Program-made: the position numbers | In this document: one piece after another, positions 31,301 through 43,300 of the stretch | Layout: every line of letters begins with the position of its first letter | Numbering within the stretch: position 1 is the first letter of the stretch | NCBI GenBank assembly: GCA_965637545.1 | Contig: OZ281495.1 | Span: forward strand, 26,474,001 to 26,538,000 | Reading direction: 5' to 3' | Length of the DNA: 64,000 nucleotides | Source of the DNA: Phallusia mammillata | Taxonomy: Eukaryota

Positions 31301-34300
31301 TCTGTACATCACTGGGGTGAATTTCAAATATTGTCCAGTACTGAACTTCATTTTTTCGATATGACGCTTGGATGCTTAACTACATGTTTTGCGAAACAGA
31401 TTCCGCAACGTAATGTTTGAGATCGCTCAAACGGAGGAAGACGTGGGTCGCTTCGATGTCTCAGCCAAGTTCCTTGGAGTTAACATGGAAAAAGTCAACC
31501 TCGTTTTCCAGGTAGGCGATTGGTAAAAACGCTTTAACACGAAACTCCGTTCGACATAATATCGACTCGCATACATTGCAGTTCGCCACACTGCAATAAT
31601 ATATAAAATTAATCTAAAAAAGACCATAAACAAAATCTAAAGTACTTCCCGTTTGGTATTTAGGCAATTTTAGTTTTCTGGTTGTCATTATGCACATTAA
31701 GTCTGATTGTATGCTTAGCCCAATGTAACGTTTTTCGATTTTGCATTTTGATTGGCTTTTAAGCGCTTGTTTGGGACATCGTACTGGTAAAATAAACAAT
31801 GACGGCATCACAGAATATGTTGCAAGATTTTTTCGCCAACAAAGGTTTGTTACAACAGACAGTATAGTCATTCAATATTGCACCTTCGACTTTTATGTAA
31901 GTTTTAACATGGGTACTATTATGTAGTATTGGACGAAATTTCTTCCCAGTGGCTTCCTGAAATCCCTGTTGCCAGTCCAATATCAGTGGATTAAATCGTG
32001 TAATCTTCTTTTACCAGGATTTGCTTCAGCTCCAGTACGAGGGTGTGTCAGTTATGAAGATGTTCGACGGGAGGGCGCGAATCAACGTCAACCTTCTCAT
32101 CTTCTTGCTCAACAAGAAATTCTTTGGGAAGTAAACCCCCCACAACGAGCCCCACACATCAGAACGGGACGATAGCGTCGCTATGAGGGAAATACCCAAA
32201 GTCCCCTTTCATACTGTGACCTATCAGTGTCCATTGAGGTTCGCGTTCGACAAAAACGCATCGATTTTAGCTGTATTCTTTAACTCGCGTTTCTTGCATA
32301 CACTATCCAGGTCTCTGCCGCTTAATATGTATATTATATAAATATATATTGGTATGCATTTAAGTGACTGCATTACCGGGCTGACAGCGTTTTCTACATT
32401 GTACACCACTGCTCATAGCAGGTGATCTTCTACTTGTGCATTGTGATTTTATGCGTCCTTGACTATGGGTGGCGACTTACATAACCTACGCTATAATACT
32501 TGAACTCGCATATATTCCACTTACAAACAACAGCATTTTTTGTGCCATTCCGTACAGTAAATGAATCTGATTTATCATTCCACTAACTTAACACTGCTCC
32601 ATTCCACACCCGAACCAACCTTAATGTACTACAAATATGTATTTTCTCAGTGTAAATGTAGTTGGACTTTTGCTACGCGTTTTTAACATTATTCCCCGGT
32701 AGAGCTATCAGTATGCGTAGAAGGCATCGCGTATTAGACTGGCAGTATTTTAAAACAGCGTTAAACCTTAAATACTTCCAAACGAAATTTGCACGAAATA
32801 CCTGGAGCCTATAAAACACCCCCTTTTTTGCTGTATCAATAAGCACAATTTGTAACATATCAAATTTGCACTGCTACTTGGGATATACACCACAGCGCGA
32901 ACTGCTTTAGCCTTGCAATCATTCTTTGTGTTTTCTTATGTGGCCTAATTTTGTGTAGTGCCCGCGTTATAACTTTAATATCGCTTGTGCCTGGTTGTCG
33001 CTTTTGCATCGTCCCTTTTCTTTTTCCGCGTCTTGTTTTAACTTTGCCTTGACAACGATTCGCGCCGTGTCAGCGCCCCCTATCGCTCAGAGGAATGGGA
33101 ACTCGAAAAACAAACGTTCCCCTAAAAAAAATTGTCAAGAGTGTATGTGGCAGAATAAAAAGGAAGCAGAAAAACAAATCAAAATTAGAAATGCTACAGC
33201 GCATTCATTTCTTTTTTAAATCCGTTCAAACATTTAAGTCTAAAACTAGTCGAGACTGCAAATTAAGCCTTGTTTTTTTAGAAACTTGGTCACACTTTAT
33301 GTCTTCGATGCCGTTTTGGTAGATTAAACAAAATGTTAGAACCGAAATGTTATCAGGATTTTGTATCGACCAGCCGTACATCACCAAAAACACATTATCA
33401 GCCATCAGTTAACCAAGAGGACTTCCCGCTATTCTAAACAGCAGTCTTACTGTAGCATAAAACTTTTTAAGGGGGGCGTAACAGATCCTCCAACAGAATT
33501 GTGCAACATCATTTCCTTGGCATGTGAAAATCAAAAAATTCGTGCCATTTTTACGGATCTGACGTTGTTTACTTGCCAACGTGACTTTAGATCAGTGGCT
33601 TTCATACGTTTGAGGCTTGCGGCACACAAACCTTTTCTTTGCGTGGGACGCTTTGCAGACTAAAACACTGGTTCCATCATTTGGCAGGGATTTAGGCCTT
33701 CGTTATGAGCCTTGATTGCAGAGTCTCAAGCCTTTCGCATAATTAAATGAGCAGTCTCGGGTTTGAGATCAGGTTATAACAGGTTCTTGGGTTTGTTGGC
33801 AAGGTTAATAATACCACACAATTACTAATTCCCGTACTGGCAAAAAAAGTGTGAAACACTACCACGTCCACCGAATTCATGATCTAGCTAGGCCTGTGCT
33901 TAATTGTGCTGTTATGTTTCTCGAAGTTGGTCGACTAAAAAGTCTTATACATCGCGTATTTTGTTGCAAACATTTTAACCATTTGACTTTGTTATGCGGC
34001 CTTTTTAATTCTTACGAATTATACCAGCAACTTCCAAAAAGTTAACTGGATTTGCGATGATTCACAATTCACAAAATCAAATGCAATGCAATCTAAAAAG
34101 CCGATTTGTTTATCTTTTAAGTTCGTTTGCACATTATATGCCCGACTCCAATTAGTAAGATAAAGAAGAGAAAATCACAAATTATCGACAAACTTTTGCA
34201 ACCAACATCCGTCTTCTTGTGCTTGGTTTCTATGAACTTGCCTTTTTTCTATTTCACGTAATCACGTGACAAAGCGCCAGATGTAAATGAATGTTTCTTC

Positions 34301-40300: not shown

Positions 40301-43300
40301 CAGGTTACCACAATAACACGAACAGACAAAAGCACGTGACATGACGTACCACGGTTTATTCGTTCTCTGGGTGAAGATGATGGAGGCTAAACGTAAGTTT
40401 ATAACAGCACACACTCCTATTTCTGTTTAACAATAGCTTTGTTCAGTACAAAGTAGATGAAGCAAACAGTAAAATATTTCTATGTAGGTTTCCATTTTTT
40501 CATTGTAGTTTTCCATTTAGTTTTGATAAACGGCAATTTAAATTTCGTTGGACTAACTGGTTTGTTTTGTGCAGGCGAATCGGATTTTCCTGCTGTTGGG
40601 ACCTTAGTACGTCTACATCGACACTGAAAACACCCACCCCAAAAGCTTCAAGGTACGAACTACCAAAAATAATTCTGCGCAATCTTTTTCCCAAGTTGAA
40701 AGCCAGCATGCAGTTCAAACGATTAGCCGTTTTGCAGTTTCTTCTTTTTTTTTGCTTATCTGATACAACTTTGGCTGCAAAACGATTCCTTAAAAAACTG
40801 CATCGTCAAGGGCCATACAATCTTCTTAACAAAACAGTTGTCTAACACAACTATCACACCGAAGTCGTTTAAAAGTGTTTAATCACATAAACCCCAGCTG
40901 GCTGTAATACAACAGTGTAACAAAACGTTGGCATTTTCTAATTTTCTTCTCTGTTTCAGATTCTTCATATCCATCAACTCGCCTTCAAGTCTCCGTCCCG
41001 TTATCATCTACAAAAATACGGGATGTCAGTTATTGGTAGGAGGCTGCTGCGTTATAGTCAACATTGAATGCGAGATTTTCACCTATAGGCCCATAACTCT
41101 ATGCTAACTTGCGCTGGGCCTCCATTCGTCATGGTCAGGTCCAGCGGATTGGAGGCCCACGTCATTTTTGTTTTTTTTGGTGCTACAAATTAAGTCGCAA
41201 TTAAGTTTATATGTAGTTGTAGCACCGATAACTAGGGGTAAGAATAGTTAGGCTGGGGCATTTTTGGGTTAGCGCGCCGCATTCCCCCTTAGTTATGGGT
41301 TTAGTTAGGCGCGGCGCGTTAAACTTTAGCGTTAAAACCTAGGGATAGAAACACGTCGCCCTCACCCACCCAGGCCCGCTGGGGGTCGATTCCACCGGAG
41401 TTTGATCCCCAGGAGTCAAAATTCCACCGGAGACTGGTACCGGTGCAGGCGGCCTCAGTCTCCCCTCATTTTTGGGCTGGAGAGGAAAGGTTCGCGAGCA
41501 CGCCGGCTAAAAATACCGTAAGGATGTTTTCAATTCCCCCCTAAAACTGTCTGAATTTGGGAGGGTCCGTCTTTGATGATGTCTTTTTCTGACCCTCTTT
41601 GATGATGATGTTGTTTGTCACAGTGTCCTAAATTTGTTTGCGGTCGCCTTTTTACACGTGGCACTTTCTCTGTCTTCCCTTGTCGTTATAAGCTTGAGCG
41701 CATTTTAACTGAGGGATTGTCGCTTGTTGTTGCACTGTTCCGTCGGTGCCGTGCATCTGTATTGGCTGAACGACCCACTCGCAGTTTATTCTTCCCTATG
41801 AATACCCTGGACTGCGGCTGGATTGCGATGTCATGCAGGTGCACACAATGTTCTTCGGTTGTTGTGGCAAAGCCTGCCACCCAGCGGATCTTGCAGCTCG
41901 TGTATTTTTCCACAGGTACTTTTATTTGCAGGTACATTTTTCCACAGGTTTTGTTCGTTTTTTATTCCATATGCTGTCTGCATATGTTATATTTTATTAT
42001 TAATATTATATTATATTATTACCTAACTACCCAAATCTCGCATTCCTTGTTGACTCGGTCGGATAAACCCATCTAAAAGCTCTGTTTGTTTCATAACTTT
42101 GCTTTTCGTGAGGTTTAAACTGCCAGGCGCGGCAGCCTCACATTTTACTTTTATAGGCTGCTGTTGAGAAGTCCAATAGATAGCGAGCTCAGAAGCTGTT
42201 TTTTCCTTGTTTTTGTTTGTGATCTAGTTGCGGCGGCATTATAGGGGCGCGCAGGACGATGGCGGTTCCACAAGTATGTTTGTGAGTTAGACTTAATAAC
42301 GTTAGGTGCAAATAGCACTGAAGAAGATGAACAACCAATCGTGTACGATTTGATAGGAGATCAACCAATCGCGTACCAGATGAACGAAGAACAATTTTAT
42401 AACTTAATTGAACACACGAGTGGCTTAAGCTTACTTTTATTTGACCACAACTAACCATTGGTGGTTACAGTTGTCCACGACTACATTTTAGTGGCAACAT
42501 GGTTACACAGGATTCAAAATAAAGTGACCTATAGGATGCTTTTGTGACTACAACTAACCATTGGTGGTATGGGGGAAATTGATATTACTGTTGTCCACGA
42601 CTAAATTTTAGTGGCAACTCGGTTTAGCTAAGATAAACGAACTACAACATTTACTCTGACAACAACTAACCATTGGTGGTTGCTTTTGCGAAAATGATAT
42701 TTTAGTTGTCCACGACTAAATTTTAGTGGCAACTTTATTTAGCAATCTTGAAAACAACATGAACGTTTTCTGTGACCACAACTAAACTTTGGTGGTTACT
42801 TTGAAACCTTTACTTAGTTGTCCACGAAAAACTTCTGGTGGCAACTTGGTTTAGCAGGTTTAAAAATAAAGTAACCGAAGTAATATTTCCATGACCATAC
42901 CTAAATATTGGTGGTTATTTCATGCAAAATGACATTTTAATTGTCCACGACTAAATTTTAGTGACAACATACTGAACTGAAGTTAACAAACTAACCATCC
43001 TTTATTTATCACAGGAAACCAGCTTGTTTGAACTTTTACGCAGTTTAATATGCTGCTTGAAATAAGTAGTTTAGTATACTACTTGGATTTTGAACCTAAA
43101 AGTAGTTTAATATACTACTTTGAAATTAGAACCAAAACAACAAGGTAGTTTGATATACTACCAGAAAATTAGAACCTGACTATTATAAAATTGTTTGTTT
43201 ATTGTGTAAAATCTTTCTAGGTTTAATTTGTTGTGTAATACACGTCGCGGTATAGGCGTTAACTCTTCCTTCCTTATTTGCTAAAAGTTGTTTAAAATTG

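What the first reader, a model, noticed from the sequence alone, without database searches (positions are those of the whole stretch)
34300..41160. Cryptic 9-exon non-coding host-like gene with a TCT/5'TOP start
Seen: nine exon-like blocks with canonical splice signals and no long ORF, so the ORF track misses it. It starts at a pyrimidine initiator just downstream of an E-box. Established: TCT/5'TOP starts plus many short non-coding exons typify snoRNA host genes (GAS5/SNHG type), whose products are intronic RNAs. Inference: a host lncRNA whose payload may be the paralogous modules in introns 2 and 3 and the repeated mini-hairpins in intron 4. I found no canonical C/D or H/ACA snoRNA by eye, so the payload may be non-standard.
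Basis: partly seen in the sequence, partly recalled or inferred. Interest (0 to 1): 0.7.

Follow-up and report, generated by a model that had tools for sequence, protein, structure and literature searches.

The report
Probable spliced non-coding gene, sea squirt
This stretch of a sea-squirt genome looks like a real nine-exon gene that encodes no protein, an ordinary long non-coding RNA candidate, and nothing found here shows that it carries small nucleolar RNAs in its introns.

Summary
The window is ascidian DNA, not human. Its IQGAP gene (3764-32131, +) is 92-100% identical in most exon matches to Phallusia mammillata IQGAP.

**What holds up**
- The nine exon-like blocks exist. Exon-like blocks are about 6 times denser here than in IQGAP introns on the same strand.
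- The blocks are GC-rich islands: 0.458 against 0.354 in their introns, like IQGAP coding exons against IQGAP introns.
- They do not code. Each frame has 17-19 in-exon stops, and no protein similarity was found exon by exon.

**What does not**
- No snoRNA was found by Rfam or by my own C/D and H/ACA scans.
- The TCT motif occurs at chance frequency.
- The model's 3' end has no poly(A) signal.
- The paralogous intron modules read better as clusters of transcription-factor sites than as RNAs, but this is not settled.

**Verdict:** a probable spliced long non-coding RNA gene, a new member of a known kind. The host-gene reading is not supported. Transcription could not be tested with these tools.

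The parts
34255..34269 (+). Promoter-like words just upstream of the model: ACGTAA followed by TCACGTGA. The E-box CACGTG lies at 34263-34268, about 30 nt before 34300.
   Evidence: TCACGTGA occurs 7 times in the window against 0.69 expected. The 12-mer TCACGTGACAAA is shared with the intron-2 module. The name 'E-box' is a recalled label.
34294..34306 (+). 13-nt pyrimidine run holding the TCT-type motif (34298-34305).
   Evidence: The window holds 63 such motifs against 55.3 expected, and 12 (+) and 16 (-) pyrimidine runs of 13 nt or more. The start site is not testable here.
34300..34363 (+). Exon 1 (64 nt). Its 5' end is assumed. First ATG at 34356.
   Evidence: Donor AAG|gtaggt scores 8.3 bits, top 0.8% of GT sites. 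GC 0.48 against 0.34 and 0.28 in the flanks. ATG position.
35021..35141 (+). Exon 2 (121 nt). An alternative acceptor lies at 34880.
   Evidence: Acceptor 6.6 bits, donor 10.6 bits. The alternative acceptor scores 8.1 bits.
35648..35840 (+). Intron-2 module, a conserved island. In order it holds TTGCGCAAT, CACGTG, TGACGTAACGA, the exact 24-mer ending in TCACGTGA, CCAATCATCTGAT, TATTTGCTCAC, CGCTGATTG and TGATTGC.
   Evidence: GC 0.44 against 0.32 and 0.35 in the flanks. Fold z -0.71.
36170..36279 (+). Exon 3 (110 nt).
   Evidence: Acceptor 11.8 bits, donor 9.3 bits.
37015..37197 (+). Intron-3 module, the paralogue of the intron-2 module.
   Evidence: 116 nt at 83% identity, E = 7e-30, plus a colinear patch 37163-37197. 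Fold z -0.49. No inverted repeats at its ends.
37558..38063 (+). Exon 4 (506 nt), with a weak donor. It could instead be a terminal exon running on to the AATAAA at 38123.
   Evidence: Acceptor 7.6 bits, donor 3.3 bits, top 15%. AATAAA at 38123.
38123..38128 (+). AATAAA word 60 nt past the exon-4 donor, a possible poly(A) signal of a shorter E1-E4 unit.
   Evidence: Its use is inferred only.
38867..39394 (+). Array of 5 copies of CAGC-N4-GCTG (4-5 bp mini-hairpins or spaced palindromes) inside a decayed repeat with copies 30-150 nt apart in intron 4.
   Evidence: 5 matches against 0.06 expected, all on the + strand. The stem is invariant and the loop varies. Single folds give z from 0.00 to -2.23.
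39556..39657 (+). Exon 5 (102 nt).
   Evidence: Acceptor 8.2 bits, donor 7.6 bits. GC 0.56.
39865..39973 (+). Exon 6 (109 nt).
   Evidence: Acceptor 8.7 bits, donor 6.5 bits.
40304..40392 (+). Exon 7 (89 nt). It holds GCACGTGACATGACGTAC, another E-box next to a CRE-like word.
   Evidence: Acceptor 12.7 bits, donor 9.8 bits. Sequence context.
40575..40652 (+). Exon 8 (78 nt).
   Evidence: Acceptor 11.7 bits, donor 8.8 bits.
40960..41160 (+). Exon 9, with an undefined 3' end. There is no poly(A) signal. A possible donor lies at 41238.
   Evidence: Acceptor 9.4 bits. No AATAAA or ATTAAA in 40901-41700. The donor at 41238 scores 6.9 bits.
41111..41180 (+). Strong hairpin followed by a T run at the end of the model. 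Its meaning is unknown.
   Evidence: -31.4 kcal/mol, z -3.94, and 1 of 200 shuffles folds as well. It is also the best of 976 windows.

Best explanation
This is an intergenic, spliced long non-coding RNA gene on the + strand of an ascidian genome (Phallusia mammillata or a very close relative). It lies between the 3' end of IQGAP and a repeat-rich stretch.

**How it most likely works**
- RNA polymerase II probably starts near 34.3 kb, downstream of an E-box/ACGTAA pair. This step is inferred.
- The primary transcript is spliced at eight GT-AG introns into an RNA of about 1.4 kb with stops in all frames. The signals are shown; their use is inferred.
- The first ATG (34356) opens a frame of at most 23 codons that ends in exon 2. 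If the RNA is translated, it would be a candidate for nonsense-mediated decay. This is inferred.
- The two paralogous modules in introns 2 and 3 most likely act as DNA, as clusters of transcription-factor sites serving as intronic enhancers or alternative promoters that share the E-box word of the exon-1 upstream region. They are less likely to be RNA products.
- The CAGC-N4-GCTG array in intron 4 is a decayed local repeat.
- The RNA probably has no sequence-specific product hidden in its introns. Any function is more likely regulatory or tied to transcription of the locus. This last step is the weakest and is inference only.

**Alternative layout.** Two units, E1-E4 ending after the AATAAA at 38123 and E5-E9, is a live alternative.
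For: **Organism and setting**
- IQGAP exons at 3764-32131 are 92-100% identical in 34 of 37 exon matches to P. mammillata IQGAP, and 60-85% in the other three.
- IQGAP poly(A)-like words lie at 33154, 33323 and 33742.
- 41.2-50.3 kb is made of repeats.
- The LDLa-GPCR lies on the - strand at 50.9-55.9 kb.

**Exons**
- 8 of 8 acceptors and 7 of 8 donors score in the range of true IQGAP sites. The leave-one-out medians for IQGAP are 7.8 and 7.3 bits.
- Block density is 1.18 per kb against 0.18 per kb in IQGAP introns, P = 0.0017.
- The exon-to-intron GC contrast is 0.458 against 0.354, the same as for IQGAP. Random placement reached it in 1 of 20000 trials.

**Non-coding**
- 17-19 in-exon stops per frame; longest ATG-to-stop at most 66 codons.
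- 26 of 26 exon-frame pieces of 20 aa or more have no Pfam match at E below 0.05.
- The 67-aa exon-4 frame has 0 hits among 1.84 billion representative proteins.
- The 63-aa and 48-aa pieces have 0 hits among longer proteins.
- 5 of 5 in-exon ORFs are absent from the protein collection.

**Modules as DNA elements**
- Conserved words of 7-24 nt are separated by spacers with 4-nt and 5-nt indels.
- The same two words, TCACGTGA and TGACGTAA or TGACGTCA, also sit side by side in unrelated contexts at 22037, 23317 and 57164.
- The modules do not fold better than shuffles.
Against: - No transcript evidence of any kind could be consulted. Every exon is a prediction.
- The E4 donor is weak, at 3.3 bits.
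- There is no AATAAA or ATTAAA in or within 500 nt after exon 9.
- The start at 34300 rests on motifs that occur at chance frequency.
- The splice matrices come from only 32 introns of one gene.
- The repeat-rich stretch at 41.2-50.3 kb also has 0.77 blocks per kb at the lower threshold, so a T-rich strand alone raises the count.
- The conserved blocks of the modules are mutually complementary on the + strand: 41 pairs, 4 with changes on both sides. 37 of 500 shuffles do as well. This leaves room for an RNA product.
- Two further exon-like blocks (36418-36515 and 37210-37290) show that the model is not unique.
Confidence: 0.55

Rival explanations
1. Host gene for intron-encoded small RNAs. The spliced exons are a throw-away carrier. 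The products are the two paralogous modules in introns 2 and 3, as non-canonical snoRNA-like RNAs, and perhaps the hairpins of intron 4.
For: - The architecture matches GAS5 as described in PMC4584312 (passages read): many short exons, only a short ORF, a 5' pyrimidine tract, and paralogous elements in neighbouring introns.
- Both modules lie in the gene's orientation.
- Each carries, in the same order over about 93 nt, RUGACGU, CUGA and CUGA (read).
- Their conserved blocks can pair: 41 pairs, all cells paired, 4 pairs with changes on both sides.
- The consensus fold is better on the + strand than on the - strand (-25.45 against -18.6 kcal/mol).
Against: - Rfam gave 0 matches at gathering score and only a chance-level match at E up to 10.
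- The C-like word departs from the recalled RUGAUGA consensus at 2 of 7 positions. The spacer to the first CUGA is 51 nt and the end stem is only 3 bp (read from the sequence).
- TGATGA occurs twice in the locus, and the one inside a module (37110) is not kept in the other copy.
- The H/ACA scan found 0.
- Fold z-scores are -0.71 and -0.49.
- 37 of 500 shuffles reach the same covariation with only two sequences.
- Helix 1 pairs two copies of the self-complementary word TGCGCA, which would pair in any case.
- The modules end 330-360 nt before the 3' splice sites. By recall, intronic C/D snoRNAs usually sit about 70-80 nt from it.
- The TCT motif occurs at chance frequency.
Confidence: 0.08
2. 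The blocks are not transcribed exons. They are either a chance run of splice-like signals on a T-rich strand, or the relic of a dead gene whose signals have not yet decayed.
For: - No expression data could be consulted.
- Repeats next door reach 0.77 blocks per kb at the lower threshold.
- There is no poly(A) signal at the 3' end.
- The start motifs occur at chance frequency.
- Stop density is what random sequence gives.
Against: - At stricter thresholds the locus keeps 0.88-1.03 blocks per kb, while repeats fall to 0.22 and IQGAP introns to 0.04-0.09.
- The GC-rich interiors of the blocks are independent of the splice matrices and match real exons.
- 3 of 4 pseudo-exons in IQGAP introns have GC of 0.25-0.31.
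- A coding gene decayed to random stop density would not be expected to keep eight good intron boundaries. This is inference.
Confidence: 0.2
3. The exons belong to something that does code. Either a micropeptide gene (for example the frames of at most 66 and 64 codons in exons 3-4 and exon 4), or untranslated exons of a protein-coding gene whose coding part lies outside the model. A variant is two separate units, E1-E4 and E5-E9, the second entered by trans-splicing at the exon-5 acceptor.
For: - Frames of at most 64-66 codons starting with ATG exist.
- AATAAA at 38123 follows the weak E4 donor.
- By passages of PMC4691747, about half of Ciona genes are SL trans-spliced, so a gene can begin at an acceptor.
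- A donor at 41238 (6.9 bits) could carry the transcript further.
Against: - The 67-aa exon-4 frame has 0 relatives among 1.84 billion representatives. Other pieces gave 0. The in-exon ORFs are absent from the collection. No Pfam match was found.
- The + strand ORFs downstream (41609-42073 and 45604-46029) have no Pfam match and read like random sequence. That stretch is made of repeats.
- The next gene lies on the other strand.
- The frame that crosses the exon 3-4 junction was not searched as one piece, because the joined step was left out.
Confidence: 0.12

Closest known systems
Non-coding snoRNA host genes of the GAS5 / SNHG / UHG type (GAS5 features from passages of PMC4584312; the other names are recalled)
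   Same: - Many short exons.
- Only short ORFs with many stops.
- A pyrimidine tract at the proposed 5' end.
- Conserved paralogous elements in neighbouring introns.
- A predicted early stop that would invite nonsense-mediated decay.
   Different: - No recognisable C/D or H/ACA snoRNA in any intron, and that is the defining feature.
- The pyrimidine motif is not more frequent than chance.
- The intron elements look like transcription-factor site clusters.
Ordinary spliced long intergenic non-coding RNAs of animals (general knowledge; chordate examples appear in PMC6784235, seen in a search listing only)
   Same: - Intergenic position.
- Canonical GT-AG introns.
- About 1.4 kb when spliced.
- No ORF above 66 codons.
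- No protein similarity.
   Different: - Nine exons is many for a lincRNA, which by recall typically has 2-4.
- No poly(A) signal at the modelled end.
- Expression is unknown.
Polypyrimidine (TCT) initiator promoters of ribosomal-protein genes in Ciona (PMC4691747, abstract and passages)
   Same: A C inside a pyrimidine tract, with no obvious TATA box upstream.
   Different: In Ciona this initiator was mapped by TSS-seq at ribosomal-protein genes. Here there is no TSS evidence, no link to translation, and the motif occurs at chance frequency.

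Membership tests
snoRNA host gene (GAS5/SNHG type) | One or more box C/D or H/ACA snoRNAs encoded in the introns | tested here: not met
   - Rfam gave 0 matches at gathering score over 64 kb.
- At E up to 10 over 33800-41600 it gave 1 match, below the family cut-off.
- My own C/D scan found 1 weak 212-nt candidate.
- My own H/ACA scan found 0.
- Lineage-specific snoRNAs could still escape these tests.
snoRNA host gene (GAS5/SNHG type) | Multi-exon spliced transcript with only short ORFs | tested here: met
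   Nine blocks with good splice signals. ORFs of at most 66 codons. Splicing itself is predicted, not observed.
snoRNA host gene (GAS5/SNHG type) | Transcription starts at a C within a 5'-terminal oligopyrimidine tract | tested here: inconclusive
   A 13-nt pyrimidine run with the motif is present at 34294-34306. The motif count in the window is 63 against 55.3 expected. The start site is not testable from sequence.
snoRNA host gene (GAS5/SNHG type) | Unstable spliced RNA, sensitive to nonsense-mediated decay or translation | not testable with these tools
   Only the position of the first stop is known: it falls in exon 2, far before the last junction.
Spliced long intergenic non-coding RNA | Does not overlap a protein-coding gene on either strand | tested here: met
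   IQGAP coding ends at 32131. The GPCR lies at 50.9-55.9 kb on the - strand. Of the 109 ORFs of 65 aa or more between 19.5 and 50.7 kb, those inside the locus (both strands) have no Pfam match above cut-off.
Spliced long intergenic non-coding RNA | Longer than 200 nt, no ORF of 100 codons or more, no protein similarity | tested here: met
   1380 nt in the nine blocks and at most 66 codons. No hits. Searches were made exon by exon only.
Spliced long intergenic non-coding RNA | Evidence of transcription and splicing | not testable with these tools
   No eukaryotic read or transcript collection is on hand.
Spliced long intergenic non-coding RNA | Poly(A) signal at the 3' end | tested here: not met
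   No AATAAA or ATTAAA in 40901-41700. The nearest AATAAA words on the + strand are at 38123 (intron 4) and 40119 (intron 6).
Box C/D snoRNA (for the two modules) | C box RUGAUGA near the 5' end, D box CUGA near the 3' end, an end stem of 4 bp or more, and about 70-120 nt in length (consensus recalled) | tested here: not met
   - Both copies have RUGACGU, which matches 5 of 7 positions.
- Both have two CUGA words.
- The end stem is 3 bp and the C-to-D' spacer is 51 nt (read).
- The scan with at most one C-box mismatch found neither copy as a pair.
H/ACA snoRNA (for the modules or any intron) | Hairpin, ANANNA hinge, hairpin, then ACA 3 nt from the end (consensus recalled) | tested here: not met
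   0 candidates on either strand of 34300-41160 with my crude criteria, against 2 in the 28-kb IQGAP span.
Miniature transposable element (for the two modules) | Terminal inverted repeats and many dispersed copies | tested here: inconclusive
   - No inverted repeat is shared by the two copies: 4 short pairs around one copy, 0 around the other.
- No further copy lies in the other 57 kb of the window.
- The rest of the genome could not be searched.

The most novel reading that the evidence does not exclude
A tunicate non-coding host gene whose introns 2 and 3 release a so far undescribed, lineage-specific class of about 95-190-nt RNAs. These would have degenerate C-like and D-like boxes and mutually complementary conserved blocks. 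The exon-1 pyrimidine start would tie their output to growth control, as in GAS5.
Probability: 0.06. Interest if true: 0.6.

Novelty: new member of a known kind. Interest (0 to 1): 0.25.

Why it matters
If it is transcribed, this would be one more multi-exon lincRNA in an ascidian, a group whose non-coding genes are poorly catalogued. Two full-text searches found no study of Phallusia lncRNAs and no paper whose title or abstract start shows a Ciona snoRNA host gene (listings only).

Its practical value is as an annotation point. ORF-based gene finding misses it, and the two conserved intron modules are easy candidates for reporter assays in a species where embryo electroporation is routine (this last point is recalled).

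It does not open a long-standing question. The more interesting host-gene reading lacks its defining feature.

Tried and rejected
**Decayed protein-coding pseudogene: rejected.**
- Stop density is random-like.
- No Pfam match in 26 exon pieces; the best was DUF7685 at E = 0.062 and 13.6 bits against a cut-off of 27.
- No hits.

**Extension of IQGAP: rejected.**
- Coding ends at 32131.
- Poly(A)-like words lie at 33154-33742, at least 550 nt before the model.

**Coding gene continuing downstream: found nothing.**
- ORFs 41609-42073 and 45604-46029 have no Pfam match and read as random.
- 41.2-50.3 kb is repeats.

**A gene on the - strand: rejected.** There are no exon-like blocks on that strand in the locus and no Pfam match for its ORFs there.

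**Trans-splice acceptor hidden in the pyrimidine run before 34319: not supported.** No acceptor of 3 bits or more lies in 33900-34400.

**Third copy of the module upstream of exon 1: weak.** Only the word TCACGTGACAAA and a nearby ACGTAA are shared.

**Tandem duplication of whole exon-intron units: rejected.** Likeness is confined to the 116-nt core and two short colinear patches.

**Hairpin scan: nothing above chance.** This covered 976 windows of 90 nt on both strands, with mononucleotide shuffles. Apart from the 41110 hairpin, nothing stands out beyond what that many windows give by chance.

**tRNA or tmRNA: none**.

**Other**
- The protein atlas gave only a family lead for the neighbouring GPCR. 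Its top clusters named Ctenophora and Chordata as commonest taxa, at scores of 0.87, and that taxon lead was superseded.
- The first exon coordinates I tried were off by one base at several boundaries and were corrected.

**Not done**
- The joined spliced model was neither built nor searched. Frames that cross junctions, such as the one of at most 66 codons over exons 3-4, were therefore tested only as separate exon pieces or not at all.
- No eukaryotic genome or read collection is on hand. Conservation in sister species, other genomic copies of the modules, and rRNA complementarity all stayed unchecked.
- Supplementary files of papers were not consulted.

Full report
**Where the window comes from.** The window has no N and 32-42% G+C.
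- ORFs on the + strand carry a CH domain (5110-5742), RasGAP (24783-25001) and RasGAP_C (29408-30665).
- The CH-domain ORF finds IQGAP proteins. The best is the Phallusia mammillata protein at 95% identity, then Ciona savignyi at 84-85%, Ciona intestinalis at 83% and Clavelina at 82%.
- A local tblastn of that Phallusia protein lays 38 matches along 3764-32131. One is an off-diagonal repeat match. 34 of the remaining 37 are 92-100% identical and the other three are 60-85%.
- I therefore take the contig for Phallusia mammillata or a very close relative, an ascidian. It is not human.
- On the - strand at 50.9-55.9 kb lies a rhodopsin-type receptor with an LDL-receptor class A domain.
- The finding sits between the two genes. 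Everything from 41.2 to 50.3 kb is repeats: an array with roughly 115-nt spacing, a 2.3-kb duplication and a 194-nt satellite.

**The observation.** Reading the sequence gives nine blocks bounded by pyrimidine tract-AG on the left and GT on the right. After correcting one-base slips of my first try, they are 34300-34363, 35021-35141, 36170-36279, 37558-38063, 39556-39657, 39865-39973, 40304-40392, 40575-40652 and 40960 to about 41160.

To judge the signals by the species' own standard, I fixed 32 of the 36 IQGAP intron junctions examined from the protein match. Of these, 29 had one length-consistent GT-AG solution, 3 had two, and 4 had none and were dropped. I built donor and acceptor matrices from the 32.
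- True IQGAP sites score a leave-one-out median of 7.3 bits (donor) and 7.8 bits (acceptor). All GT and AG sites in the window have medians of -0.6 and -2.1.
- The model's eight acceptors score 6.6-12.7 bits.
- Seven donors score 6.5-10.6 bits. The exon-4 donor scores only 3.3 bits.

**Is this more than chance?** As the null I used the sense strand of IQGAP introns, excluding blocks that touch a coding match.
- At 6.5/6.5 bits these introns hold 4 distinct exon-like blocks in 22.3 kb. The locus holds 8 in 6.8 kb.
- At 7.5/7.5 bits the counts are 2 against 6. The conditional binomial P values are 0.0017 and 0.0029.
- The - strand shows 2 blocks between 32.2 and 50 kb, neither inside the locus.
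- A caution: the repeats next door reach 0.77 blocks per kb at the lower threshold, falling to 0.22 at the stricter ones.

A second line, independent of the matrices, is composition.
- The nine blocks have 45.8% G+C and A over T. Their introns have 35.4% and T over A.
- IQGAP coding matches have 44.9% and IQGAP introns 35.8%.
- Placing nine segments of the same lengths at random in the locus reached the observed value in 1 of 20000 trials.
- Three of the four IQGAP pseudo-exons have 25-31% G+C. The extra block 36418-36515 inside intron 3 has 35%.

I conclude that the blocks are very probably real exons, or were so recently.

**Coding capacity.** I did not build or search a joined spliced sequence. 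Codons were read in place inside each exon and junction codons were counted as open, which gives upper bounds.
- The three frames hold 18, 17 and 19 stops in 1380 nt.
- The longest ATG-to-stop run is at most 66 codons (exon 3 into exon 4). The next is 64 codons, inside exon 4.
- The first ATG (34356) opens at most 23 codons, ending in exon 2.

Searches exon by exon found nothing:
- 26 pieces of 20 aa or more from the three frames of the nine exons gave no Pfam match. The best was E = 0.062, far under its cut-off.
- The 67-aa exon-4 frame has no relative among 1.84 billion representative proteins.
- The 63-aa and 48-aa pieces find nothing among longer proteins.
- Five in-exon ORFs are not in the 15-billion-protein collection.
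- ORFs of 65 aa or more on both strands of the locus have no Pfam match above cut-off.

A decayed pseudogene or a hidden coding gene is therefore unlikely. A micropeptide cannot be excluded.

**The two ends.** About 30 nt upstream of 34300 lies TCACGTGA, preceded by ACGTAA. 34300 is a C in a 13-nt pyrimidine run that fits the TCT-type motif.
- That motif occurs 63 times in the window against 55.3 +/- 7.1 in shuffles. CACGTG occurs 16 times against 12.1.
- By my arithmetic from those calls, about one motif within 60 nt downstream of an E-box is expected per window. Adding a strong donor within 200 nt brings the expectation to roughly 0.1. One such arrangement is observed, this one. The evidence is weak and after the fact.
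- Polypyrimidine initiators with a C start are documented for Ciona ribosomal-protein genes (PMC4691747, abstract and passages), so the idea is reasonable for an ascidian but is not shown here.

At the 3' end there is no AATAAA or ATTAAA between 40901 and 41700.
- The model ends in a strong hairpin followed by a T run (-31.4 kcal/mol, z -3.94), whose meaning I do not know.
- An AATAAA lies at 38123, 60 nt past the weak exon-4 donor. A shorter unit E1-E4 and a second unit E5-E9 are therefore possible.

**The proposed payloads.**
- Rfam finds nothing at gathering score in the whole window. At E up to 10 it finds a single match in the locus: ceN47, 16.3 bits against a cut-off of 35, E = 7.1, in intron 4.
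- My C/D scan (C box with at most one mismatch, exact CUGA, end stem of 4 bp or more) gives one 212-nt candidate on the + strand and none on the - strand.
- My crude H/ACA scan gives none on either strand.
- ARAGORN finds no tRNA.

The modules are real paralogues: 116 nt at 83% identity (E = 7e-30), with two weaker colinear patches, and no copy elsewhere in the window. The alignment shows short conserved words separated by spacers with 4-nt and 5-nt indels. The words are TTGCGCAAT, CACGTG, TGACGTAACGA, an exact 24-mer ending in TCACGTGA, CCAATCATCTGAT, TATTTGCTCAC and CGCTGATTG.
- By recall these words are the usual forms of C/EBP-type, E-box, CRE-type and CCAAT sites.
- TCACGTGA (7 against 0.69 expected) and TGACGTAA (13 against 2.36 expected) are over-represented across the whole window. 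They sit side by side in unrelated contexts at 22037, 23317, 40332 and 57164. This fits protein-binding DNA words.
- Neither module folds better than shuffles (z -0.71 and -0.49).
- There are no shared terminal inverted repeats.

Against this reading:
- The conserved blocks can pair with one another on the + strand: 41 pairs, 4 with changes on both sides. But 37 of 500 shuffles do as well with only two sequences, and one helix is made of two copies of a self-complementary word.
- Both copies carry RUGACGU, CUGA and CUGA in the order of C, D' and D boxes over about 93 nt.

I rate an RNA product as possible but unlikely.

The mini-hairpins are five copies of CAGC-N4-GCTG, all on the + strand within 38867-39394 (0.06 expected). 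They are the best-kept core of a decayed local repeat. Their folds are marginal (z from 0.00 to -2.23).

**Reading.** The best account is an intergenic spliced long non-coding RNA gene whose introns hold duplicated regulatory DNA. I give it 0.55. The rivals are:
- no real transcription, or a relic (0.20);
- a small-peptide gene, untranslated exons, or a two-unit layout (0.12);

Compared with GAS5 (12 exons, a short ORF, 5'-TOP, ten box C/D snoRNAs in its introns; PMC4584312, passages), the locus shares the carrier architecture but fails the defining test of intron-encoded snoRNAs. I therefore do not file it there.

**What stayed open.**
- No eukaryotic genome, read or transcript collection was on hand. 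Expression, splicing, start and end sites, conservation in sister species, genomic copy number of the modules and complementarity to rRNA were all unchecked.
- Two full-text searches found no paper on Phallusia lncRNAs and none whose title or abstract start shows a Ciona snoRNA host gene (listings only). Supplements were not seen.
- The finding is an honest annotation gain and is otherwise ordinary: interest 0.25.

Noticed in passing
window 3764-32131 (+): A complete-looking IQGAP gene with at least 37 coding exon matches. Most are 92-100% identical to the Phallusia mammillata protein. The match at 8689-9090 is only 60% identical over a longer stretch, which may be a divergent or alternative exon, or intron read-through in the match.
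   Followed up: partly
window 50940-55862 (-): A rhodopsin-family receptor with an LDL-receptor class A domain. ORFs at 52190-53191 and 50940-51437 match 7tm_1, and 55002-55862 matches Ldl_recept_a. TCACGTGA with two TGACGTA words at 57164-57200 may be its promoter.
   Followed up: partly
window 22037-22100 and 23270-23330 (IQGAP intron 20589-23409): TCACGTGA stands next to TGACGTCA or TTACGTCA words inside the largest IQGAP intron, the same word pair as in the finding's modules. This could be an intronic regulatory element or promoter.
   Followed up: no
window 43340-44700 and 45640-47000: Two copies of a repeat about 2.3 kb apart, 80-98% alike piece by piece. It holds good splice-like signals, which inflates exon-like block counts there.
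   Followed up: partly
window 49444-50230: A satellite of 194-nt units (3.1 copies, 86% matches), flanked by 90-nt units.
   Followed up: no
window 42430-43000: Five copies with roughly 115-nt spacing, each with a short palindromic core (GTTGTCCACGACTAAATTTTAGTGGCAAC).
   Followed up: no
window 13217-13286, 20001-20041, 21342-21393, 30170-30261, 30372-30416, 47270-47361: G+C-rich palindromic repeat fragments (GGGCCGC...GCGGCCC type) scattered on both strands, probably a small mobile element family. One pair has 92-nt arms that are 87% complementary.
   Followed up: no
window 41111-41180 and 41200-41560: A strong hairpin plus T run, followed by a G+C-rich stretch (55% in the first 150 nt) with its own stable fold (41260-41349, z -2.7). 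This may be the edge of an inserted element rather than part of the gene.
   Followed up: partly
window 36418-36515 and 37210-37290: Two further exon-like blocks inside intron 3. The first has intron-like G+C (0.35). The second (0.42) lies directly after the intron-3 module and could be an alternative exon.
   Followed up: partly
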